From the NCBI GenBank assembly GCA_963752255.1, contig CAVVXT010000012.1, positions 128,001 to 192,000 on the forward strand: 64,000 nt of DNA, written 5' to 3'. The notes below the pieces were generated by a model. It saw only the letters and a program-made list of their open reading frames with translations. It did not search any database and was not told the origin of the DNA. Shown here one piece after another: positions 14,778 through 23,495 of this stretch (positions are counted from its first letter, which is position 1; every line of letters begins with the position of its first letter). A program made the position numbers and the translations under genes. This DNA is from Nitrososphaeria archaeon. GTDB taxonomy: Archaea > Thermoproteota > Nitrososphaeria > JACIWG01.

Positions 14778-16202
14778 TTAAATAGTTGCTATAAATCCAT
14801 GCGTTACGTCGGCAATTGATTGAATAAGTGGATGTCTGATTTTTGAGGGATCTTTAATTTTTTCTAACCTGTGAACTCTAAAGTAGATGGGTGGGTGAGC
14901 CTCCAAACTTAACCATTCCTGGATTCGGTACGACCGCATCCGTTCATAAAGAAGCCTCTTGAAACCTATCTTCTGGAGGGCTCCTGCTAGAACCTGTGGT
15001 TGCTGGATTACCATAGCCGAAATAAGGTCGGCTCTGGCTTCAAGACATTTTGCTATGGAAAAGAAGATGGCTGAGATAACCCAAAAGTATATGAAGAAAA
15101 GTAAGAGGGATGAGACAAAGGGTATAAACACAAAGAAGTAGATAAGGTACTGAATTGCATTTAGGCCATACAGTAAAAGTGGGTCTCGTCCTTTTAAATG
15201 TCCGAACTCGTGACCTAAGACGTTTATGATCTCAGCTTCTTCGAGCTGAACAAGAAGACCTGTCGTAATCATGACGAGTCCGCGACTTGGGCTAGGTCCT
15301 GACGCAGACGCGTTAGGGAGTAAAGTATTTGCAACAACGATTTTAGGCATCTTGTACCCGAATTTGTCCGCTGTAGTTTTGACCATCTGGTAGACGTTTA
15401 CTTTTTTAGAAACCAAATCCTCTGGCCTGCAATCTAGTCCGTATTTGGTAAAGATCTCGTGAACTGTTTGGCAGTCAATTTCTCCATCTTTTAAAACCGT
15501 CTTCTCGTATACTTCGCGCTTGAGTGCAATTAGTTGTTCTTTTGTAAATTTTTTCCTGATCATATCAGCTTCCTGTGAAGGCAAGTGATATTCAAGAAAA
15601 TGGATAGTCGGATTGCGCTCTGTTATTCGCCAATCTCCTACCCTGGCGACAATTTTGCTTGAGTAAAGGACAACGACCAATTGAATACCTAAAAAAGGAA
15701 TCAGGGCGTAACCACCTAAAAACGTGAAAACCACTATACCGACGCCGATAAACAGAATTAGAATGAGAATCTGTGTCTCAATAAGGAGCCGGTTAAGAGA
15801 CCTTTCTTTTCCAGTAAGGCGTTCTGGAACTATCTTTTCACCCTCCTCCCATGCAAAAAATAAAGTGCTCCTTCTAAGTTGTTCTTCAAAAAGGTCGATC
15901 GAGATTTCGATATCTTCTTTTGCTTCAATAATCTTTTCTTCCGTCACCGTGTCGTCAAAGGTCTTTATAATGATCTGAATAGGCTCACTAGCTATAACCT
16001 TCTCGTCAAACTTCTGCCTAGTGTCCGGCATTGTAAAGCTGAAGGAAAGGTAAGGATCACCATCAGTTATATCCTTTAAGACGTTTTCGAACATCTTTTC
16101 CTGGGGTAGAATGTATCTTTGATGTATGAAATCCAAAAGATTTATTCTGAGGTTGGGAGGTAATTTTGTTCCAACTGTGTAGGTAAAAGTTCTTTCGGCC
16201 AT
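14778..16202 (-). CDS. M48-family zinc protease with long N-terminal extension
   Basis: PNASASGP, HEFGH, EARAD and HPP in the C-terminal half; about 270 aa N-terminal part containing a two-helix TM hairpin. Confidence 0.85.
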   Translation of the reverse strand: MAERTFTYTVGTKLPPNLRINLLDFIHQRYILPQEKMFENVLKDITDGDPYLSFSFTMPDTRQKFDEKVIASEPIQIIIKTFDDTVTEEKIIEAKEDIEISIDLFEEQLRRSTLFFAWEEGEKIVPERLTGKERSLNRLLIETQILILILFIGVGIVVFTFLGGYALIPFLGIQLVVVLYSSKIVARVGDWRITERNPTIHFLEYHLPSQEADMIRKKFTKEQLIALKREVYEKTVLKDGEIDCQTVHEIFTKYGLDCRPEDLVSKKVNVYQMVKTTADKFGYKMPKIVVANTLLPNASASGPSPSRGLVMITTGLLVQLEEAEIINVLGHEFGHLKGRDPLLLYGLNAIQYLIYFFVFIPFVSSLLLFFIYFWVISAIFFSIAKCLEARADLISAMVIQQPQVLAGALQKIGFKRLLYERMRSYRIQEWLSLEAHPPIYFRVHRLEKIKDPSKIRHPLIQSIADVTHGFIATI

Positions 16203-16481
16203 CCTTACGTAATGCACAACTCTTTCTGTGTTTATAAATTTTGACTTTAGGGCCCATTAAATGGAGTCTTTGCAATTGTGATTATTGCTGATTATCAAGA
16301 TATTAAAAAGTCTTAAGAACAATAGCGCCTTAACAATTCATCATAAATTAGCTCTTTTTTTCATTTTGACTTTAATAAATTTCTTAATTCTAGATTTGAT
16401 TATTAAGTGTTCCGGATACGGGGCAATCCTTTTTTTATTCTAGAAAATCTTTTAGGTAGGAACAATAAACCGTCAAATAAT

Positions 16482-16557
16482 AGCCCGGTGGTGCAGCGGT
16501 CAAGCACAGCGGCCTCTGGAGCCGCAAACACCAGTTCGAATCTGGTCCGGGCTACCA
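16482..16557 (+). tRNA. tRNA-Gln(CTG), intronless, CCA encoded
   Basis: Acceptor stem AGCCCGG/CCGGGCT with archaeal A1-U72, anticodon arm GCGGC-CTCTGGA-GCCGC, T arm ACCAG-TTCGAAT-CTGGT, ends ACCA. Confidence 0.97.
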
Positions 16558-17217
16558 CATCACCCACCGATGTTTTAGCGATAGATGCACTCCCATGTGC
16601 AGTTGGCTTTTAAAAGCTTAGGGTAAGCATCACCCTAAATCGCTGATTCTGCTCTGCCGGATTTAGCGATAGAACACATCTCAGGAAAGGGAGGCGTTAA
16701 AAAAATCGAGATAACACAATCGCTGATCTACCTATCGATACCCCAAAAAAATGAGGTTATTTAAAAAAAATTGAACTAACTTCAAACTGTTGCATCTCGG
16801 ACTAAAGCTCATGTGTCAGGTTACCCACGAATATAACCTACCAGTACCAGTTAAGACACTTTTTGACCTGTCTGGTATGAGTTTAGCGAGACGTGGAAAG
16901 GTTCACTTTAGTGAAAAACACCTATTCTGCTAGTATGGCGACCATTGAGAACAGGATTAATGTTTTCCTTTTATCTATCACCTTTTCCATGTCACCTCTT
17001 GTGATTGTGGATATATTGCAATTTATTAAAGAGTTTTTCAGAATCCAACCAAAATGTACTCCTAATTTTACACAAATTATACCAAATTTAAGATGAGGCA
17101 GTTTGTAGGCATCTTGTTCACTGAGGATCCAATACCACACTGGGAACATTCAAACAAACAAAAAATGCAACTACTTAAAACGGAAAGTTAGATTTAAAAA
17201 AAGGAGATAATGGCTAG

Positions 17218-17625
17218 TTGTGAATATTAAATACTCTTATAAGGGAGAAGGTTCTTTCTAATACTTAAGTGATAAAATGATCTTTATCAGTTTAATGAAG
17301 AACAGGCAGAAGCTAACAAAGGAATGTTTAGCTGAAAGCTCGAAGAACATGGAAAAAGACAAGAAAGAAGGAATAAAGTATCTTGGAATATATTATACAC
17401 TAGGCAGATACGACAACGTCGTCATAATGGAAGCGCCTGATGAAAAAACAGCTATGAAAGCCTCCATCAGAAAAGGAGAACATCTTGCAAGTGAGACGCT
17501 CGTCGCAGTACCCGCAGAAGAAGCCAGAAAACTCGTCGAATAATTAAGACACACCTTCACAACATTTTTTTGATATATTATAACGCATATGATATTTTTT
17601 GAGTTAGTTTATTCATAGCCTTTGT
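17218..17625 (+). repeat. About 410-bp direct repeat, copy A (promoter + GYD gene + 3' flank)
   Basis: Matches 21880-22275; upstream 59 bp differ at one base; 3' flank ACACCTTCACAACATTTTTT...TTTTTTGAGTTAGTTTAT is shared. Confidence 0.95.
17277..17543 (+). CDS. GYD-domain protein (copy A)
   Basis: YYTLGRYD..VIMEAPDE..SETLVAVP family pattern. Confidence 0.9.
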   Translation: MIFISLMKNRQKLTKECLAESSKNMEKDKKEGIKYLGIYYTLGRYDNVVIMEAPDEKTAMKASIRKGEHLASETLVAVPAEEARKLVE

Positions 17626-17858
17626 TGGGTTTTTATTTGTAATTAATTATCTCTATTCTAATTTCACTACAGAACCACTCTCTAAGAGTTTGTGGAATTA
17701 TCTATATATTCGTCTCTCTATATGCCTTACGAGACCAATTTTGCAAAGTTCTTTTAGGAATATGATCTTTTAATCCAGATTTGATCAGATATTCTTTGGC
17801 TTCATTATTGAACACATTTCAAAACTATTTTTTCTTAGCTGCTGAGCTGCTGAATTAC

Positions 17859-19457
17859 TCAAAGGTCAGAGTCACCAGCAGACGAGTACCTTCTAAGAGC
17901 GTCCCTAACCACGCTTCTCATACTTGCAGATACGAATGGCTGGAACGGAGCAAGATATCTCACGCCCTTCGCCTTTGCAATCGCTTGGCCGTCATTTTCA
18001 CTCAGATATCCGGTAAGGAACGCTTCAGCGACAAGCTTCATCCCTTCCTCTTTAGCCGCGTCCTTTGCGGAATAGTAGAGAAACTCGGCGAGATCCCACG
18101 CCGTATCACCATTCTCCACGGCCTGCTCGAGGTCGAAAAGATAGATTTCATCTTTGCACACGATTGCGTTCTCTGCCTTCGTGTCCCCATATACCAAGCC
18201 AGCCTTGTGCAACTTGCCCAATATTTTGCCATACTTTACGATGTACTTCGTTCCGGTTCCTTTCCCATCCGTTACCTCCTCGACGAACTTAGAGAGTGAT
18301 ACCCCCTTGACATACGCGGTAACCAGAATCCTTTCGTGAAAGGCAATGCCGATTATATTATGAGTTCTTATTCCAAGTTTACGTACTCGCTTGACAGCCT
18401 CGTACTCTCTCTGGAGTCTTGAAAGTGGGCTCATGTCGAATTTCTTAGCAGTAAAAGCCCACAGGTTGAGCAATCCCCACTTTATGGACTTGAGATCAGG
18501 AAAGTGTTTGAGGATATAGTACATGTGCTTTCCATGACCCGAAATTTCGAGCAGCTCAGTGGAAGTGTAGATCTCTCCCTTTTTCTCCATTTTATGGCTA
18601 TAGGTTTTGCCGAAGCCGGACATCTGAGCAAGCTCTTCGGTTATCCTGTTTACATCATCAAAAAGAAGCCCTTCCTCAAGGCAAAGCAGCCTCTTCGGCC
18701 GGTTGAGTTCAACCAATGGTTCGACCGTTCCTCCCATCCTTCCCACTTTAGAGAGAGCTTCAGTCTTGACGATCTCGCTTCCCACTTCTCTAGTGAATCC
18801 ATGAATCGGGTACTGGGCAACGCCTGTACTCATGGGCGAAAACATTGAGACAATCTTGGAAAGTAAGCTCGCACTAGACATACTGCGGTTGACCCTGACC
18901 GATTCATTAGTACTTTCCAATATCCCTTGTGAAGCAAGAAATGCTGCCGCTTCTCGGAACCCACGAACCGTGAACTCCTTGTTCTCTTTCCTACGAGCAC
19001 ATGTATAAGTGTGATCGTAGCTGTAAATCACATGTGGGTAGACAAGAGCCCTTTTATGCAGCTTATCGAAAAGAAAGTATTCGTAAGGAATGATTAAGTT
19101 TGAAGAAAAGTCGCCGTAGTCTGAATGGATTTCGATCAGCTCTTCAGCTATGACCCTCTTTTTGTATTCGACTTCTACACTCCGCAAGAACTCTGGGTTA
19201 ACTATGGGTTCATAGATGTTCAAAAGCCTGCCTACGACGAACTCATCAAGAGAAGATTGCTTTGCATCTTCTCGCAGAGCGGTCTCCTCGACGATGATCG
19301 CTGATGACTGAATGGGCTCTTGGTTTTGTACGTACCTTATGCTTTCATCGAAGTCCTTCGCAACTATGATCATGTCATAACCAGAATCTTCTCTCGCATA
19401 GCCCGCAACCTTAGAGCCGTAAGCACAAATGGAAGATATCTTCTCTTTCCCGACCAA
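17859..19457 (-). CDS. Nucleotidyltransferase-like domain fused to a Bud32/RIO/Kdo-like kinase
   Basis: N-terminal CAYGSKVAGYAREDSGYDMIIV (pol-beta NTase motif); C-terminal YILKHF, REYE, YGDTKAEN, FDLEQA, WDLAEF; the true start is probably further upstream (~19543). Confidence 0.8.
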   Translation of the reverse strand: MVGKEKISSICAYGSKVAGYAREDSGYDMIIVAKDFDESIRYVQNQEPIQSSAIIVEETALREDAKQSSLDEFVVGRLLNIYEPIVNPEFLRSVEVEYKKRVIAEELIEIHSDYGDFSSNLIIPYEYFLFDKLHKRALVYPHVIYSYDHTYTCARRKENKEFTVRGFREAAAFLASQGILESTNESVRVNRSMSSASLLSKIVSMFSPMSTGVAQYPIHGFTREVGSEIVKTEALSKVGRMGGTVEPLVELNRPKRLLCLEEGLLFDDVNRITEELAQMSGFGKTYSHKMEKKGEIYTSTELLEISGHGKHMYYILKHFPDLKSIKWGLLNLWAFTAKKFDMSPLSRLQREYEAVKRVRKLGIRTHNIIGIAFHERILVTAYVKGVSLSKFVEEVTDGKGTGTKYIVKYGKILGKLHKAGLVYGDTKAENAIVCKDEIYLFDLEQAVENGDTAWDLAEFLYYSAKDAAKEEGMKLVAEAFLTGYLSENDGQAIAKAKGVRYLAPFQPFVSASMRSVVRDALRRYSSAGDSDL

Positions 19458-19948
19458 GGATTCGGCAAGGGTGCGCAGCTTAGATTTCTCCCTTGCAGTC
19501 AGCCTGCTCTTCAGGGTTCCATCTCCTCTTTTATCCCGAGCATGACCTAAGTCAGGACGGCCTATGATTTAAAAGTAGTTCGAGTGGGAAACAATTGGTC
19601 AAAATCATTGGTTGATAGAACGCCATCTTTCTGAAAAACTTTTCAAATCTAATAGGAATCGAATTTTTTTTCTTCTACGTTGTCTTCTTCGGTTTTTTAA
19701 TTGATGGCTATTTGGTTTTGAAGTGAGTTCCTAAATAGCTTAAGATTTTCTATTTGATCCCTCATGAAGATTTTCGCTTTGTTAGGATATGAGGAATTGC
19801 CGTGGTCGATCCAACCTCATGTGTCGATGTGGGCGCTGGCGAGCAGCAGGCTGGGCGCGCTCAACTTTATATTAGGTATTCTGCAAACGTAATATCCTTC
19901 ACTTCATTAACAAAAGGATTTATTAACCCCAAAGTGTATCCAATAATC

Positions 19949-20119
19949 ATGAGCAAAGAAGAAGTAAAGGGAAAAGGTAAACAAATCAAGGGAAAGATTC
20001 GTGAAGAAGTAGGCAAATTGACGGATAACAAAACGGAACAGCTTAAAGGTAAGATTGAGAAAGCTGAAGGGAAAGCCGAAGAGGAAATAGGGAAAGCAAA
20101 AAGAAAGGCAAAAGATTAA
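19949..20119 (+). CDS. CsbD-family stress protein, 56 aa
   Basis: MSKEEVKGKGKQIKGKIREEVGKLTDNKTEQLKGKIEKAEGKAEEEIGKAK matches the CsbD pattern; TATA-like TTTATTAA about 25 bp upstream. Confidence 0.88.
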   Translation: MSKEEVKGKGKQIKGKIREEVGKLTDNKTEQLKGKIEKAEGKAEEEIGKAKRKAKD

Positions 20120-20211
20120 GAGAATGATCTCCCTCTGATCTGAGTTACTTTTATTTTTTTTCTCGAGTTGCTTATAGCTAAAACTTTTTCATTTGGACTG
20201 CCCTATAGCTT

Positions 20212-20355
20212 TCAATGTTGCGCATATTCTAGACCTCTCTTCCTTCTTGCTTTTTTCTTCTGTCCTTTGCTTCTTTCACCAAACCCGCTTCCAACTGTGG
20301 ATTTCCTTTGCTTGTCTTTTCCCACCGTATATTCTGTCTTCTTCTTCGCTGGCAT
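20212..20355 (-). CDS. Small highly basic protein, 47 aa (not in ORF track)
   Basis: MPAKKKTEYTVGKDKQRKSTVGSGFGERSKGQKKKARRKRGLEYAQH; TTTAAA box about 25 bp before the ATG. Confidence 0.5.
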   Translation of the reverse strand: MPAKKKTEYTVGKDKQRKSTVGSGFGERSKGQKKKARRKRGLEYAQH

Positions 20356-20980
20356 TAACCATCGGGACAGTATTCAAAGTTTAAAGATTTAATCTTAATA
20401 TTAACAGAGTACCCCTCTTTATTCAAAATAGTTACAGACTAAGGAAAATATCTATTTATATATTTTATAACAATACTTTCAGATTTGCCTTTTCATTATT
20501 TTTCCTTTAATATTGTAGGACGATAGTCATAAAATGTAATCAAAATCAGATATAAAAAATAGTTAAGAGAATCATTTGGCAACTTTTAATATTAAATTAC
20601 AAAAAAGCATAACCACATAGGAACGGTTTTTAGAGTAAACTTTATAGACTATATATATCATGGAAGAAATCTCTATTTAACTGGTGGATAAGGTCTCCTT
20701 TATATAGGAGGACCACTAATTTATTCTTGATAGATATGTGTCTTAACAGATTTTACACCGTTAAAGGAGGCTATCTCACTAAGAGCATAAGCTATCAATG
20801 TCGACTTAGAAGCTTTAGAAACAGCTAACTAATCTTAATTGTGATCCTAGCTCTTCCTCTCTTTGTATCATTGTTTTCAAGTTTATTTATTGAATCGAAC
20901 TGGTTATCTCCCAAGTGTGGAATCCTTAAAAAAGATACTATAAAGATCACAGGGACTGTCGCTGACGATATGTTCTTCGC

Positions 20981-21130
20981 TTAACCCAATACAACTAATA
21001 CAATGCCGCAGACAGTTCTCAGTAATCTTCCTACTTGAAAGTACCAGGGATGTTTGTCGTACCACCAGTACCAGATGTTTGAGGCTCCCTCTATTGCTAC
21101 GAAGGCTCCTATTCCCTTTATCCAGATCAT
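20981..21130 (-). CDS. Small membrane protein, 49 aa (not in ORF track)
   Basis: MIWIKGIGAFVAIEGASNIWYWWYDKHPWYFQVGRLLRTVCGIVLVVLG has two hydrophobic segments; ATGA overlap with an upstream Cys-containing ORF. Confidence 0.55.
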   Translation of the reverse strand: MIWIKGIGAFVAIEGASNIWYWWYDKHPWYFQVGRLLRTVCGIVLVVLG

Positions 21131-21480
21131 ACATTATCCCTCTTACAGCCCTTCTTTGGACAAACATTCTTTACCCAATATGCAACCTTGGACTTCATAA
21201 ACAGATCACATCTCATTTCCTTTTTAGAGCCCACAGATAACCATTTCTGAAGCATAATGCCATCTGTAGCATTGCATACTGAACAATATTAGCTAGACAC
21301 TTAACCTTATCAAGAATTCTTATATTTTCTATGAAGTGGATCTTAACGAAGAAGGTTTATTTTCGAAGTGTTTGTACTTTCTTCTAAAAACACTAAAGAT
21401 AATTTACATGAAGGACACAAGAGACTGTTATCAAACTGATAGACTTTTTTCTTAGCATTTTTTTATCAAAAAAATAGGGG

Positions 21481-21573
21481 TTAGAGAATATAGTGTTTCC
21501 TTCGTTTTTTCTCTTCTATTTTGGGCGTTAAACCCATTTCTTCTTCAATTGCGTCTACGTCTTTCCATGGCAT
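21481..21573 (-). CDS. Micro-ORF, 30 aa
   Basis: MPWKDVDAIEEEMGLTPKIEEKKRRKHYIL followed immediately by a CCCCTATTTTTT terminator-like tract. Confidence 0.4.
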   Translation of the reverse strand: MPWKDVDAIEEEMGLTPKIEEKKRRKHYIL

Positions 21574-21655
21574 TTTAAATCGCTGTGTCCACACTGCAAA
21601 GAGGACTGCTATTTACATGTTTTTTTTACATTTATTGATAAATTAATAAAAAAAA

Positions 21656-21832
21656 TTGCACAATATAACTGATATAGAACAAGTAGCAGCTAACAGAGTT
21701 CTCCAAGAAGATTGGGCGAGTAAATCGAATTTTTATGAGGAAGATTTTGCGAATAAAATAGGTGCGACCTTGAGCAAACATCAATACTGGGATTGCACTT
21801 GGAATGGTTTACATATAGAATCTATTAGTTAA
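21656..21832 (+). pseudogene. Truncated ORF, possible PD-(D/E)XK nuclease remnant
   Basis: 58 codons ...FYEEDFANKIG...YWDCTWNGLHIE, ending where an ExK would be expected, about 50 bp before repeat copy B. Confidence 0.3.
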
Positions 21833-21879
21833 TCTCGAGCCTTCTTTGTTTCACGTAGTAGAAGAGGATTTTTAATATA

Positions 21880-22275
21880 TTGTGAATGTTAAATACTCTT
21901 ATAAGGGAGAAGGTTCTTTCTAATACTTAAGTGATAAAATGATCTTTATCAGTTTAATGAAGTTCAGGCAGAAGCCTACAAAGGAATTGATTGCTGAAAA
22001 CGCGAAGCTCTATGAAAAAGAAAGGAAAGAAGGAGTAAAGAGTCTTGGAACATATTATACATTAGGCAGATACGACGCAGTCGGCATAATTGAAGCGCCT
22101 GATGAAAAAACAGCTTTGAAACTCGCGATGAGAAGAGGATTCCTCACAAGTGAGACGCTCGTCGCAGTACCCGCAGAAGAAGCCAGAAAACTCGTCGAAT
22201 AACCAAACACACCTTCACAACATTTTTTGTATATACTATAACGCTATTTTTTGAGTTAGTTTATCCCTAGCCTTT
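21880..22275 (+). repeat. Direct repeat, copy B
   Basis: Matches 17218-17625 with an offset of 4662 bp at the start codons. Confidence 0.95.
21939..22202 (+). CDS. GYD-domain protein (copy B)
   Basis: YYTLGRYDAVGIIEAPDE; paralog of 17277-17543. Confidence 0.9.
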   Translation: MIFISLMKFRQKPTKELIAENAKLYEKERKEGVKSLGTYYTLGRYDAVGIIEAPDEKTALKLAMRRGFLTSETLVAVPAEEARKLVE

Positions 22276-22299
22276 TCTGTTATTTTCAAAAATAGGAGT

Positions 22300-22320
22300 A
22301 GGGGTTGTTGACCCCTTTAA
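22300..22320 (-). terminator. Hairpin between convergent GYD genes
   Basis: AGGGGT-TGTTG-ACCCCT inverted repeat just past the stop of the 22335-22628 gene. Confidence 0.4.
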
Positions 22321-22334
22321 TGTTTCTATGGTGG

Positions 22335-22628
22335 TTATGGAAGTTTTGCGATTAGTTTCGCGCCTTCCTCCGCTGAAAAGGCTTTGAGGGTTATTGTGCG
22401 GACATTGCCTCCCATTGCGACAGCTAGCGAATTTATAAATGCGTTCTCATCGTTGTCGCTTTCTACTAATATCACCATGTCATATAGACCAAACGTGTAC
22501 CAAAAGCCTAGCCATTTTCCGCCTGTCTTTTCGACAAGGGCTTTTTCCTTTGCTACCCGCTTAGAAGATTCCTTGACATTCTTTATCCCTTGGTCCGTCC
22601 AATTTACGAGTTGAATAAAGTATGGCAT
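22335..22628 (-). CDS. GYD-domain protein (canonical type)
   Basis: YFIQLVNWTDQGIKNVKES..R, WYTFGLYD, GNVRTITLKAF. Confidence 0.92.
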   Translation of the reverse strand: MPYFIQLVNWTDQGIKNVKESSKRVAKEKALVEKTGGKWLGFWYTFGLYDMVILVESDNDENAFINSLAVAMGGNVRTITLKAFSAEEGAKLIAKLP

Positions 22629-23067
22629 AGATTATTTTTGAAATATTCCTATATAAAGTTAACAGCCATCAACAGTCATCATCAACAATCAACATCCATC
22701 ATAAGCGTTCATCATCCGCCATCACTTGACCAATTGTCATAGTGGACAATAGGGTACCCTATGTCAACAAGGCAATAGTAGCGCTCAAAAGGGATAGGAG
22801 TATGACGGAGAGCACAGATATAATAAAGCAGCGTGAAAAGGACTTCGATTTAAGCCAGAGCAGGATTTGTGAGCTCATGTCTGATGAATATAAACGGGCA
22901 TACGGATATATTTGGGCACTAGCTTTTTTGTCAAGCCTTTTTACGCTTTATGACCCTTAATATTGTACTGGGGCATCATCCGATTTTTTTAGGCATTTTT
23001 TTGGAAACCTTATCTTATGGTATTCCTATAAGATTTAACGGAAACTTTTTGTCGCGAGCCGGATGTC

Positions 23068-23119
23068 TAACGTTATTATAAAATGTTTTTATATAACGTT
23101 TTTATATAATGTTATTATG
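23068..23119 (+). repeat. Four tandem 13-bp repeats (consensus TAAYGTTWTTATA)
   Basis: taacgttattata / aaatgtttttata / taacgtttttata / taatgttattatg; the last unit ends in the ATG of the HTH fragment. Confidence 0.8.
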
Positions 23120-23224
23120 CCAAGAAAAAAAGGGGACGACGACGAGCTGACAAGGAAGGCGCTCGAGCTTAGAGGTAAGGGCTTGAGCTATAGGGAAATG
23201 ATAGGGCTTTATAGTAGAAGCTAG
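23117..23224 (+). pseudogene. Truncated helix-turn-helix protein
   Basis: MPRKKGDDDELTRKALELRGKGLSYREM then an abrupt stop; ALELR..GLSYRE is a typical HTH start. Confidence 0.55.
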
Positions 23225-23495
23225 TATCTTTGTCAATAGAAAGTCGGTAGATCATAGAGTTATCATACAAGAGCTCGTTGGACACTAAGATGGTCATGGG
23301 AAAAGAATTTATTGTCGAAACAACTTAAGTTACACAAAGAGGCTCTTGAGGTTTTTAAGAAAAGATTATAAAAAAAATCTATTTCAAAGAATGCAATCCA
23401 ACAATGCCTTAGGATAAGTTCTATCTATTGCCTCAGTTAATAGAAGTAAAGGTTAGCTTCTATAACAGATTTAACTTAACTTAATGTTTTATACT

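What the first reader, a model, noticed from the sequence alone, without database searches (positions are those of the whole stretch)
17218..22275. Recently duplicated GYD genes that differ almost only at amino-acid-changing codons (hypervariable pocket?)
Seen (hand codon alignment of 17277-17543 vs 21939-22202): 23 codons change the amino acid and there is one codon indel, while only 2 of the 64 same-amino-acid codons carry a synonymous change. Eleven of the 23 changes are 2-3-base swaps (AAC/TTC, TGT/TTG, ATG/TAT, AAC/GCA, CAT/TTC). The 59-bp promoter differs at one base and the last 17 sense codons are identical. The changed residues follow structural periodicity: i/i+3-4 in the helices (17,18,21,22,24,25,28,29; 60,62-64) and i/i+2 in the strands (33,35; 47,49,51). 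Known: GYD proteins are small ferredoxin-like alpha+beta domains of largely unknown function. Inference: one face, plausibly a ligand-binding cavity, is being diversified on a frozen scaffold by intense positive selection or a targeted mechanism such as gene conversion or cassette shuffling. That would make a variable ligand-recognition repertoire in an archaeon.
Basis: partly seen in the sequence, partly recalled or inferred. Interest (0 to 1): 0.85.

Follow-up and report, generated by a model that had tools for sequence, protein, structure and literature searches.

The report
Fast-evolving GYD gene cassettes in an archaeon
A peat-soil archaeon carries four near-identical copies of a tiny gene of unknown function in which about ten codons, probably lining an internal pocket of the protein, change far faster than silent sites, as if each copy were being retuned to bind something different.

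Summary
The two GYD genes differ at 23 amino-acid-changing codons, 11 of them by 2-3 bases. They have one codon indel and only 2 silent changes in 64 shared codons. The 59-bp upstream stretch differs at 1 base and the last 17 codons are identical.

The pair alone is not statistically decisive (P=0.08; gene-wide dN/dS 1.5, p=0.52). The wider set is:
- The genome holds four copies and a sister species three.
- Site models on 10 close sequences give 14% of codons at omega about 6 (2dlnL 64-66).
- The signal survives segment-specific trees.
- It also survives a tree-free test on sites chosen from distant relatives (dN/dS 2.4-2.8, p=2e-5).
- Two other clades of the family give no signal with the same code.

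A predicted homodimer uses the conserved sheet face. The variable residues therefore face the helices, which suggests an intra-subunit pocket.

No reverse transcriptase was found and 59 adenine columns are invariant, so this is not a DGR.

New here: each gene sits in a roughly 0.4-kb promoter-to-terminator unit beside tyrosine-recombinase relics. Contigs from four metagenome runs lack unit A. The function remains unknown.

The parts
17218..17276 (+). Conserved upstream stretch of unit A. I read it as an archaeal promoter (TTAAATA/TTATAA boxes) followed by a GTGAT ribosome-binding site 4 nt before the ATG.
   Evidence: It differs at 1 of 59 bases from 21880-21938, and similarity ends at 17217. 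It is conserved in all 7 full copies and in 5 metagenome relatives. The promoter and ribosome-binding-site reading is inference from the sequence.
17277..17543 (+). GYD gene A (88 aa)
   Evidence: Pfam GYD at 44.2 bits (cut-off 31.4). AF2 model has pLDDT 93.9 with a beta-alpha-beta-beta-alpha-beta-alpha fold. Positively selected codons: 7, 17, 22, 25, 47, 49, 62, 69, 70.
17544..17634 (+). Conserved 3' stretch of unit A with oligo-T runs. Its last ~50 nt also occur without a GYD gene, next to recombinase gene ends.
   Evidence: Direct repeats D3-D5 match 22207-22286. Stand-alone copies lie at G000 C19:316468-316515 and in G001 C2 and C26.
17229..17704 (.). 476-bp segment holding the whole of gene A. 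Contigs of related strains lack it (presence/absence polymorphism). It is bounded by an imperfect direct repeat: TTGTGAATATT at 17218-17228 and TTGTGGAATTA at 17690-17700.
   Evidence: Joint 17228->17705 appears in one contig in each of 4 of 4 runs laid, from 2 studies. Boundary sequences were read.
17650..17704 (-). Possible relic of a tyrosine-recombinase box II (reads IIPQTLREWFCSEIRIE). This is a weak call.
   Evidence: 35 nt are 86% identical to C3:168112-168146, which lies inside another integrase-like ORF.
21824..21854 (+). Relic of the recombinase 3' flank just upstream of unit B
   Evidence: 31 nt are 93.5% identical to C5:17370-17400, directly beside the end of the C5 recombinase pseudogene (C5:17386-18096). 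The same type of upstream junction occurs in L096, L101, L103 and L104.
21880..21938 (+). Conserved upstream stretch (promoter) of unit B
21939..22202 (+). GYD gene B (87 aa)
   Evidence: Pfam GYD at 46.7 bits. Its first 24 codons are identical at all 28 variable nucleotide sites to copy E of the sister species, whereas 26 of 63 differ downstream.
22203..22286 (+). Conserved 3' stretch of unit B
   Evidence: D3-D5
22335..22628 (-). Third, canonical GYD gene (97 aa), convergent with B. It is only distantly related (31% identity in alignment A2) and is not part of the repeated unit.
   Evidence: Pfam GYD at 78.3 bits.

Best explanation
These are members of a young, clade-specific family of GYD-domain genes. 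There are four in this genome, three in the sister species, and more in peat and sediment metagenomes.

Each gene lies in a self-contained unit of about 0.4 kb made of its own promoter, an 87-88-codon gene and an oligo-T terminator.

The protein is a small ferredoxin-like alpha+beta domain that probably forms a homodimer through the conserved face of its sheet. About ten residues have been replaced again and again, several times faster than silent sites change. They lie on the helix-facing side of strands 1-4 and on the buried faces of helices 1 and 2, gathered toward one end of the sandwich. The dimer face, the basic K-x-R-x-K-x-TKE loop, the EAPDEK loop and the C-terminal helix stay frozen.

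The most likely reading is recurrent positive selection that retunes an internal binding pocket for a small ligand. In that reading each copy has a different specificity but the same output surface.

New combinations also arise by exchange of segments between copies. Copy number changes by gain and loss of whole units in DNA that carries relics of tyrosine-recombinase genes.

Shown: the rate excess, its site pattern, its restriction to this clade, the multi-copy unit, the indel polymorphism and the recombinase relics.

Inferred: the pocket geometry, the existence of a ligand, the constant partner, and any role of the recombinase in moving the unit.
For: Copies and unit:
- Four full copies in G000 and three in G001, plus a 5'-truncated copy and a 3' fragment.
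- Promoter and 3' stretch are conserved in 5 metagenome relatives.

Selection:
- 34 of 88 codon columns vary in amino acid among the 7 copies, and 8 vary only silently.
- dN plateaus at 0.15-0.23 whether dS is 0.1 or 1.0.
- M1a/M2a, M7/M8 and M8a/M8 give 2dlnL of 65.7, 63.6 and 63.8, with p2=0.14 and omega2=6.0.
- Segment-specific trees give 2dlnL of 36.1 for codons 1-30 (sites 7, 17, 22, 25) and 21.4 for codons 31-60 (sites 38, 47, 49).
- Tree-free test: 18 sites chosen from 86 distant relatives, scored in 5 independent closest pairs, give dN/dS of 2.4-2.8 with Fisher p=2.4e-5. The remaining sites give 0.36.
- Negative controls with the same code: clade 2 (32 sequences) has omega 0.22 and clade 3 (18 sequences) has omega 0.12. 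Both have 2dlnL of about 0.
- Among 29 close proteins, entropy at sites 7, 17, 25 and 69 equals or exceeds that among 86 distant ones.

Geometry:
- The AF2 model has pLDDT 93.9.
- The homodimer model scores 0.61 against a best control of 0.00. The mark was reached by 20 of 30 proteins solved as pairs and 1 of 23 solved as single chains. Runs agree in at least 97% of contacts, and partner pLDDT is at least 90.
- The interface is 2, 4, 6, 13-15, 18, 37-45, 47-48, 50, 73, 75-80, 83-84, 87-88.
- Variable residues are depleted there: 5 of 34 against 25 of 54, p=0.003.

Turnover:
- The 476-bp unit A is missing in one contig in each of 4 of 4 runs.
- A's upstream flank is orthologous to a G001 locus without the gene.
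- A full 374-aa tyrosine recombinase lies convergent to copy F. Its C-terminal fragments lie beside C, D, E, L096 and L104.
Against: - The A-B pair alone is not significant (P=0.084; Fisher p=0.52). Gene-wide omega among copies is only 0.5-1.5.
- Codons 61-88 give no significant signal with their own tree (2dlnL 2.95, p=0.23).
- The codon models are my own implementation, not PAML or HyPhy.
- Recombination and multi-nucleotide changes (11 of 23 differences; kappa 0.9) are known to inflate such tests.
- I had no coordinates, so no cavity, burial or clustering was measured. The pocket is inferred from strand alternation, helix periodicity and a predicted dimer.
- Many variable residues are hydrophobic, so core repacking without any ligand remains possible. 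Summed side-chain volume varies less than in column shuffles (9227 against 16130), though not significantly (P=0.17).
- No ligand, partner, expression data or function is known.
- Nothing shows that the recombinase moves the unit.
Confidence: 0.6

Rival explanations
1. Core repacking. After duplication the copies drifted, and a destabilising change in the hydrophobic core triggered compensating changes at touching residues. This would give bursts of amino-acid change with no ligand and no new specificity.
For: - Most variable residues are hydrophobic or small (M/I/W/C/A/F at 7; M/Y/L/I/F/G at 25; V/G/A/N/S at 49).
- Summed volume of 18 candidate pocket residues varies less than in column shuffles (9227 against 16130).
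- Mutual-information pairs link variable sites across helix 1, helix 2 and strands 1-3.
Against: - The volume test is not significant (P=0.17).
- Polar residues recur at the same sites (N9, S21, S22/K22/Q22, N24, N47, H69). That is unusual for a pure core.
- The same sites are hit repeatedly in 10 sequences, with up to 12 residue types among 29 close proteins.
- Two sister clades with the same fold show no excess.
Confidence: 0.15
2. Artefact of rate estimation. The sites are merely unconstrained, and omega>1 arises from multi-nucleotide mutations, recombination between diverged copies, or silent-site homogenisation by gene conversion.
For: - 11 of 23 A-B differences are multi-base. Transversions outnumber transitions 25 to 14, and kappa is 0.9.
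- Mosaic pairs exist.
- The pair alone is not significant.
Against: - The tree-free test on a-priori sites still gives dN/dS of 2.4-2.8 (p=2.4e-5).
- Segment-specific trees keep the signal in two of three segments.
- Silent divergence of the syntenic pair C-E looks similar to the 5.4% nucleotide divergence of their shared flank. Silent sites therefore do not look suppressed. I judged this by eye from 7 silent differences and did not calculate it.
- Conversion tracts would copy the variable codons too, because they are interleaved at 1-3 codon spacing.
- Clades 2 and 3 behave normally, with kappa 2.2-2.7.
Confidence: 0.1
3. Paralog insulation. The copies form dimers, and the variable residues are interface residues selected so that each copy pairs only with itself.
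For: - A homodimer is predicted (score 0.61; best control 0.00; 20 of 30 solved pairs and 1 of 23 single chains reach the mark).
- Sites 38 and 47 are both selected and in the interface.
Against: - The predicted interface is built from conserved residues. Only 5 of 34 variable residues, and 2 of 10 selected residues, lie in it.
- A higher oligomer with other interfaces was not tested.
Confidence: 0.08
4. Targeted mutagenesis by a diversity-generating retroelement or a similar template-driven system.
For: Hypervariable codons on a frozen scaffold, with several AAC codons among the variable ones.
Against: - No RVT_1 match in the genome, which is 94.7% complete. The control rang in 3 of 14 known genomes.
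- 59 adenine columns are invariant between the variable codons. Variable columns are spread evenly over codon positions (27, 29 and 26) and use all four bases.
- No extra template-like copy was found: only the four coding copies plus one 48-nt 3' fragment.
Confidence: 0.02

Closest known systems
Pfam GYD domain family (PF08734), with overlap to DUF3303 (PF11746)
   Same: Both window proteins pass the GYD gathering score. They have the G-R-Y-D hairpin motif and a ferredoxin-like beta-alpha-beta-beta-alpha-beta fold. The 88-aa subfamily has 1494 relatives with E<=0.001 among 2669 candidates. By the source names, these are mostly from archaea of peat and sediments.
   Different: No function is described for the family. 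Searches for 'GYD domain', PF08734, 'GYD family', COG4274 and DUF3303 found no functional study. The rate excess is confined to this clade: two other clades show none.
Variable proteins of diversity-generating retroelements
   Same: A small set of hypervariable residues sits on a rigid scaffold, plausibly in a binding site.
   Different: There is no reverse transcriptase, no template repeat and no adenine-specific pattern. The diversity lies between paralogs and species, not within one locus.
Dimeric alpha+beta barrel proteins (5-chloromuconolactone isomerase ClcF, SCO4226, TftG, olivetolic acid cyclase) and stand-alone RAM domains (TTHA0845, Lrp/AsnC C-terminal domains)
   Same: These are the best structural neighbours: 3zo7/4fpi at E about 1e-4 and TM 0.61-0.65; 4oi6, 2djw and 2efq at E about 1e-3. 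They are small oligomeric ferredoxin-like domains. By my recollection, they hold small molecules between the sheet and the helices or between subunits.
   Different: Sequence identity is 14-22%. The only sequence-level PDB hit is 2djw at E=0.91. Catalytic or ligand residues were not compared. The fold is very common, so the resemblance says little about function.
Integron gene cassettes and other recombinase-associated mini-cassettes
   Same: A single small gene lies in a short unit that is present or absent between strains. The unit is bounded by a short imperfect direct repeat and sits beside tyrosine-recombinase genes or their relics.
   Different: The unit carries its own promoter. No attC-like hairpin site and no array at an attI site were seen. 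The recombinase scores far below the integron-integrase cut-offs (33 bits against 265). No recombination was demonstrated.

Membership tests
Pfam GYD (PF08734) | Whole-protein score above the curated gathering score (31.4 bits) | tested here: met
   A scores 44.2 bits and B scores 46.7 bits. The third gene scores 78.3 bits.
Pfam GYD (PF08734) | Small alpha+beta ferredoxin-like domain with the G-x-Y-D hairpin | tested here: met
   The AF2 model has pLDDT 93.9, with elements E2-9, H15-30, E34-40, E47-52, H56-65, E70-77 and H80-87. G43, R44, Y45 and D46 are invariant in the 7 copies.
Diversity-generating retroelement target | A reverse transcriptase gene in the genome | tested here: not met
   0 matches to PF00078 in G000 (94.7% complete). 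The control rang in 3 of 14 genomes.
Diversity-generating retroelement target | Variable positions correspond to adenines of a template repeat, so adenines within the variable region are not invariant | tested here: not met
   59 invariant A columns lie in codons 5-72 across 10 sequences. No template-like extra copy was found.
Integron cassette | Integron-type integrase (IntI) | tested here: not met
   The recombinase beside copy F scores 33 bits against TIGR02249 (cut-off 265) and 16 bits against NF011946 (cut-off 435).
Integron cassette | attC recombination site at the cassette end, and promoterless cassettes in an array | tested here: inconclusive
   Only an imperfect 11-nt direct repeat bounds the 476-bp indel. 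The units have their own conserved upstream stretch, and the copies are dispersed. No fold test of an attC-like hairpin was run.
Muconolactone isomerase-like / dimeric alpha+beta barrel enzymes | Fold match plus conserved catalytic residues | tested here: inconclusive
   Fold match only: TM 0.61-0.65 and 14-18% identity. Catalytic residues were not compared.
Lrp/AsnC RAM domain | Sequence-level membership | tested here: not met
   A profile of 116 sequences hits 2djw only at E=0.91. Pfam lists no AsnC_trans_reg match.
Known anti-phage defence or phage protein families | Match to PADLOC or PHROG models | tested here: not met
   0 PADLOC families for the three GYD proteins at E<=0.1. PHROGs gives only E=0.026 and 0.062 for B. 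No relative was found in viral contigs.

The most novel reading that the evidence does not exclude
The units are promoter-bearing gene cassettes mobilised in trans by a tyrosine recombinase. Together they form a non-DGR hypervariable repertoire of small ligand receptors (or ligand sponges) in an archaeon. A frozen dimer and output surface would carry a pocket that is continually re-specified under conflict-type selection and reshuffled between copies. This would be a cassette-based recognition system of a kind not described in archaea.
Probability: 0.15. Interest if true: 0.85.

Novelty: new variant of a known kind. Interest (0 to 1): 0.62.

Why it matters
GYD is a widespread domain with no known function. 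Here a natural experiment marks which residues matter. The frozen dimer face and loops point to a constant partner or anchor. About ten fast-changing residues point to a specificity pocket.

That gives a direct handle: express the four paralogs and look for different bound ligands.

It is also a rare, statistically clean case of strong diversifying selection among archaeal paralogs that does not use a retroelement. It comes with evidence that the genes are gained and lost as small units next to recombinase relics. If the selection is conflict-driven, it would point to a new class of small recognition or counter-defence proteins in uncultured soil archaea.

Tried and rejected
DGR: rejected.

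Dimer-interface insulation: disfavoured.

Assembly chimera: unlikely. The sister species has three copies. Five metagenome contigs carry the same unit. Contigs of 3 runs cover B and its flanks with 1-2 mismatches (records 6, 15, 22, 23). However, no single listed contig spans a whole unit with both flanks.

Conserved gene neighbours across the wider family: none. Clustering of 2260 ORFs from the fetched loci gave only the GYD gene itself and its antisense ORFs as widespread clusters.

Non-coding RNA in the unit: none. Rfam at E<=1 gives only the tRNA and two sub-threshold C/D-box hits outside the units.

PHI test for recombination: not significant (p=0.13).

Pocket-volume compensation: not significant.

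Mutual information: Neff of about 75 and confounded by phylogeny, so only suggestive.

Structure searches: the viral library gave 0 hits at E<=0.001. A PDB sequence search with the canonical GYD gave only a spurious E=0.16 hit. The protein atlas only repeated the GYD/DUF3303 label.

Expression: no RNA holder was listed among 21 runs.

Within-population variants at A's codons 5 and 22 were seen in contigs of X3 and X4. At 90% likeness they may be mis-laid paralogs, so I do not use them.

Joints 17592->22248 and 20355->20751 (one contig each, run X1 only; the first with a 28-nt side, the second with a 90-nt side): treated as repeat artefacts.

Supplementary files of papers were not consulted, and no paper bore on the claim.

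Coordinates of the models are not given by the tools. Cavity size, burial and clustering therefore could not be computed.

Full report
OBSERVATION.

The two ORFs at 17277-17543 and 21939-22202 encode 88- and 87-aa proteins. Both pass the Pfam GYD gathering score (44.2 and 46.7 bits; cut-off 31.4).

- 23 amino-acid-changing codons, 11 of them with two or three base changes.
- One codon indel at codon 68.
- 2 silent changes (codons 42 and 70) among the 64 sense codons that keep the residue.

The 59 bases upstream differ at one position and similarity ends abruptly at 17217/21879. The last 17 sense codons and the stop are identical. About 85 nt downstream are also shared.

Taken alone, this pair is suggestive but not significant:
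- Two or fewer silent-only codons among 25 changed codons has P=0.084.
- The Nei-Gojobori estimate is dN/dS=1.50, with Fisher p=0.52.
- Part of the reason is that multi-base codon changes are partly counted as silent steps.

MORE COPIES.

BLAST of the unit against the whole assembly finds four full copies:
- A and B lie in the window.
- C lies on contig C6 (32051-32314, minus strand).
- D lies on contig C3 (68307-68570, minus strand).
- A 48-nt piece of the 3' stretch lies on C19.

Among 41 genomes searched with the DNA, own genome included, 4 have a match at E<=0.001:
- G000 itself.
- G001, of the same genus, which has full copies. It has three (E, F, G), a copy cut after about 28 codons (L010) and a 3' fragment (L011).
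- G003 and G010, with weak partial matches.

Proteins E, F and G are identical to three loci of a record titled 'Nitrososphaeria archaeon isolate SPRUCE 295'.

Metagenome contigs L096, L099, L101, L103 and L104 carry the same promoter and 3' stretch.

The 88-aa subfamily as a whole is large: 1494 proteins with E<=0.001 among 2669 candidates. By record titles, it occurs in Methanomassiliicoccales, Methanomicrobiales, Bathyarchaeia, Thermoplasmata and others from peat and sediment.

SELECTION.

In the seven full copies, 34 of 88 codon columns vary in amino acid, often with 4-6 states. Eight columns vary only silently and the rest are identical.

dN between copies is 0.085-0.21 at dS of 0.10-0.26. 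It stays at 0.15-0.23 against L102-L104, where dS is 0.5-1.0. The variable sites are therefore already saturated among the closest copies, while the scaffold does not change.

I wrote a Goldman-Yang codon likelihood (F3x4, branch lengths optimised) and ran it on the 10 closest sequences:

| Model | Result |
|---|---|
| M0 | omega 0.70, kappa 0.88 |
| M1a | lnL -1284.97 |
| M2a | lnL -1252.11, p2=0.144, omega2=6.0 |
| M7 | lnL -1283.94 |
| M8 | lnL -1252.12 |
| M8a | lnL -1284.03 |

The likelihood-ratio statistics are 65.7, 63.6 and 63.8 (p about 1e-14). Sites with posterior above 0.95 are 7, 17, 22, 25, 47, 49, 62, 69 and 70. Sites 38 and 72 follow at 0.93 and 0.86.

Three checks:
- (i) The same code on two other clades of the family gives omega 0.22 with kappa 2.65 (32 sequences) and omega 0.12 with kappa 2.17 (18 sequences). 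Both have 2dlnL of about 0 for M2a. The signal is therefore neither a property of my code nor of the family.
- (ii) With a separate tree for each third of the gene, the statistic is 36.1 for codons 1-30 (sites 7, 17, 22, 25) and 21.4 for codons 31-60 (sites 38, 47, 49). It is only 2.95 (p=0.23) for codons 61-88.
- (iii) A tree-free, non-circular test. I took the 18 sites with entropy of at least 2.0 bits among 86 distant relatives and scored them in five independent closest pairs. This gives pN=0.308 against pS of about 0.147, dN/dS of 2.4-2.8 and Fisher p=2.4e-5. The remaining 70 sites give 0.36.

Among 29 close proteins, the entropy at sites 7, 17, 25 and 69 equals or exceeds that among the 86 distant ones. 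Sites such as 20, 23, 26, 80 and 84, which vary in the family, are invariant in the close set.

I conclude that a defined subset of codons changes several-fold faster than silent sites in this clade only.

MECHANISM OF DIVERSIFICATION.

A retroelement is excluded as far as the data go:
- No RVT_1 match in the assembly, which is 94.7% complete.
- 59 invariant adenine columns lie between the variable codons.
- Variable columns are spread evenly over the three codon positions and all four bases.
- No template-like copy exists.

Exchange between copies is indicated:
- B and E are identical at all 28 variable nucleotide sites of codons 1-24 but differ at 26 of 63 downstream.
- C and G show the reverse pattern: 19 of 24, then 17 of 67.
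- That makes 2 of 45 pairs at p<=0.001 and 7 of 45 at p<0.05 in a MaxChi permutation test.
- The three segment trees differ in topology.
- The PHI test is not significant (p=0.13). I call recombination likely, not proven.

C and E share a 1177-bp upstream flank at 94.6% identity. They count 7 silent differences in the conserved codons. By eye, the silent rate of the scaffold therefore looks ordinary for the divergence of the two species, so silent-site suppression is not needed. I did not calculate this.

STRUCTURE.

AlphaFold2 with a 116-sequence alignment gives a confident model (pLDDT 93.9). Its elements are b1 2-9, a1 15-30, b2 34-40, b3 47-52, a2 56-65, b4 70-77 and a3 80-87.

The nearest solved folds are:
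- 5-chloromuconolactone isomerase (E about 1e-4, TM 0.61-0.65).
- SCO4226, the stand-alone RAM protein TTHA0845 and Lrp/AsnC domains (E about 1e-3).

At the sequence level only 2djw appears, at E=0.91.

A two-copy complex prediction scored 0.61, with a best control of 0.00:
- The mark was reached by 20 of 30 proteins solved as pairs and 1 of 23 solved as single chains.
- The runs agree in at least 97% of contacts and the partner pLDDT is at least 90.
- My own alignment was used, so these counts hold only roughly.
- Similar dimeric barrels are solved, so part of the pass may reflect likeness.

The interface is 2, 4, 6, 13-15, 18, 37-45, 47-48, 50, 73, 75-80, 83-84 and 87-88. This is the conserved even-numbered face of the sheet, the G-R-Y-D hairpin and the C-terminal helix. 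Only 5 of 34 variable residues lie in it, against 25 of 54 invariant ones (p=0.003).

By strand alternation, the variable residues 5, 7, 9, 49, 51, 70 and 72 point to the other face, toward the helices.

In helix 1 the invariant residues are charged (K15, E16, E20, K23, E26, K30), plus A19. The variable ones (17, 18, 21, 22, 24, 25, 28, 29) form the opposite face, which is largely hydrophobic.

From the ferredoxin-like topology (my reasoning, not a measurement), five elements meet at one end of the sandwich, next to the invariant basic loop K8-x-R10-x-K12-x-T14-K15:
- the C-terminal half of b1;
- the start of b3 and of b4;
- the end of b2;
- the first half of a1;
- the end of a2.

This is where I place the pocket. 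Mutual-information pairs such as 7-47, 9-47, 17-69, 21/22/25/28-66 and 22-38 fit this placement, but they are weak (Neff about 75).

GENOMIC SETTING.

Downstream of C, D, E, F, L096 and L104, the similarity continues into the end of a convergent ORF. Beside F it is a complete 374-aa tyrosine recombinase:
- Pfam Phage_integrase, 1.4e-16.
- PHROG integrase, 2e-24.
- Below the NCBIfam XerA cut-off.

Beside C, D and E only its last 70, 45 and about 39 residues remain. Further fragments lie on C5, C10 and C3.

The last ~50 nt of the 'unit' are really the recombinase's 3' flank, because they also occur beside recombinase ends without any GYD gene.

A 31-nt relic of that flank lies just upstream of B, at 21824-21854.

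The right end of A's segment reads like box II of another recombinase. This is a weak call: 35 nt at 86% identity.

In one contig in each of 4 of 4 metagenome runs (two studies), position 17228 is joined directly to 17705. A 476-bp segment that contains the whole of gene A is therefore absent from related strains. Their flanks are about 97-98% identical to the window. The segment is bounded by TTGTGAATATT and TTGTGGAATTA.

A's upstream flank is orthologous to a G001 locus that has only the 3' element.

Window 16200-23400 as a whole maps in pieces to at least seven G001 contigs and holds several multi-copy repeats.

The genes thus sit in fast-rearranging, recombinase-scarred DNA and are gained and lost as small units. 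Whether a recombinase moves them is not shown.

No relative was found in viral contigs. No match was found to defence or phage families.

INTERPRETATION.

The best-supported reading (about 0.6) is recurrent positive selection on an internal binding pocket of a dimeric GYD protein, with segment exchange between copies and cassette-like turnover.

Rivals:
- Core repacking without a ligand (0.15).
- A rate-estimation artefact from multi-base changes and recombination (0.10).
- Dimer-interface insulation (0.08).
- Template-driven mutagenesis (0.02).

What the ligand is, and what drives the selection, I cannot tell. The driver could be environmental chemistry in peat, or conflict with mobile elements.

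My guess, marked as such, is a small molecule with a constant anionic handle held by the basic loop and a variable moiety in the pocket.

NOVELTY.

Four full-text searches found no functional study of the family and no report of this pattern:
- 'GYD domain'.
- PF08734, 'GYD family', 'GYD domain-containing' and COG4274.
- DUF3303.
- 'diversifying selection' with archaea, paralogs, hypervariable and binding pocket.

I saw listings and abstract starts only, and read no paper.

Gene families under diversifying selection are a known kind. A retroelement-free, cassette-borne, pocket-focused case in an archaeal domain of unknown function is a new variant of that kind.

The scan had noted the same stretch before in another reading of this genome (e1-6362880), but not on other DNA.

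Noticed in passing
window 17859-19457 (-): A 532-aa ORF lies between units A and B. It has a weak N-terminal nucleotidyltransferase (Polbeta) match and a C-terminal RIO/Bud32-like kinase domain. It also has weak matches to PD-T4-6 defence kinases (E=6e-7). Its ortholog in G001 (94% identity) lies on another contig with no GYD unit beside it.
   Followed up: partly
window 20664-20863: A repeat of about 180 bp with 7 copies in G000 (76-86% identity) and many in G001. Metagenome contigs break at its ends (loose ends at 20667 and 20718). It has no Rfam match. It may be a MITE or an unknown small RNA.
   Followed up: partly
window 16200-23400: This 7-kb stretch is a patchwork relative to the sister species. 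Successive pieces match G001 contigs C3, C26, C21, C20, C22, C8, C2 and C5, several of them in multiple copies. This marks a rearrangement hot spot.
   Followed up: partly
window 16482-16557 (+): tRNA-Gln (CTG) lies about 660 nt upstream of unit A (17218), or about 720 nt upstream of gene A's start codon. It is a typical integration target, but no att-like repeat of the tRNA end was looked for.
   Followed up: no
window 22661-22719 (-): Sub-threshold C/D-box sRNA matches (sR41 at 21.7 bits and sR5 at 21.4 bits, both below gathering) lie just beyond the third GYD gene. The region 22655-23200 is itself multi-copy, with 7 hits in G000.
   Followed up: no
L010 (G001:C16) and L011 (G001:C30): A GYD unit is cut after about 28 codons (promoter intact). 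A separate fragment holds only the last 6 codons plus the 3' stretch. These are debris of the same unit in the sister species.
   Followed up: partly
G000 C5:17386-18096: The largest recombinase remnant in this genome (residues 135-371; 79% identical to the intact G001 protein) is split over two frames. I did not see an intact copy of this recombinase in G000.
   Followed up: partly
G000 C3:67183-67446 (-): An 87-aa ORF near copy D has a G-A-Y-D motif and looks like a stand-alone RAM (Lrp/AsnC ligand-binding) domain. This was read by eye only.
   Followed up: no
window 17393-17560 (-) and 22055-22210 (-): Antisense ORFs of 55 and 51 aa overlap the conserved 3' half of the GYD genes. They recur in relatives only because they overlap the conserved gene. 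There is no evidence that they are genes.
   Followed up: partly
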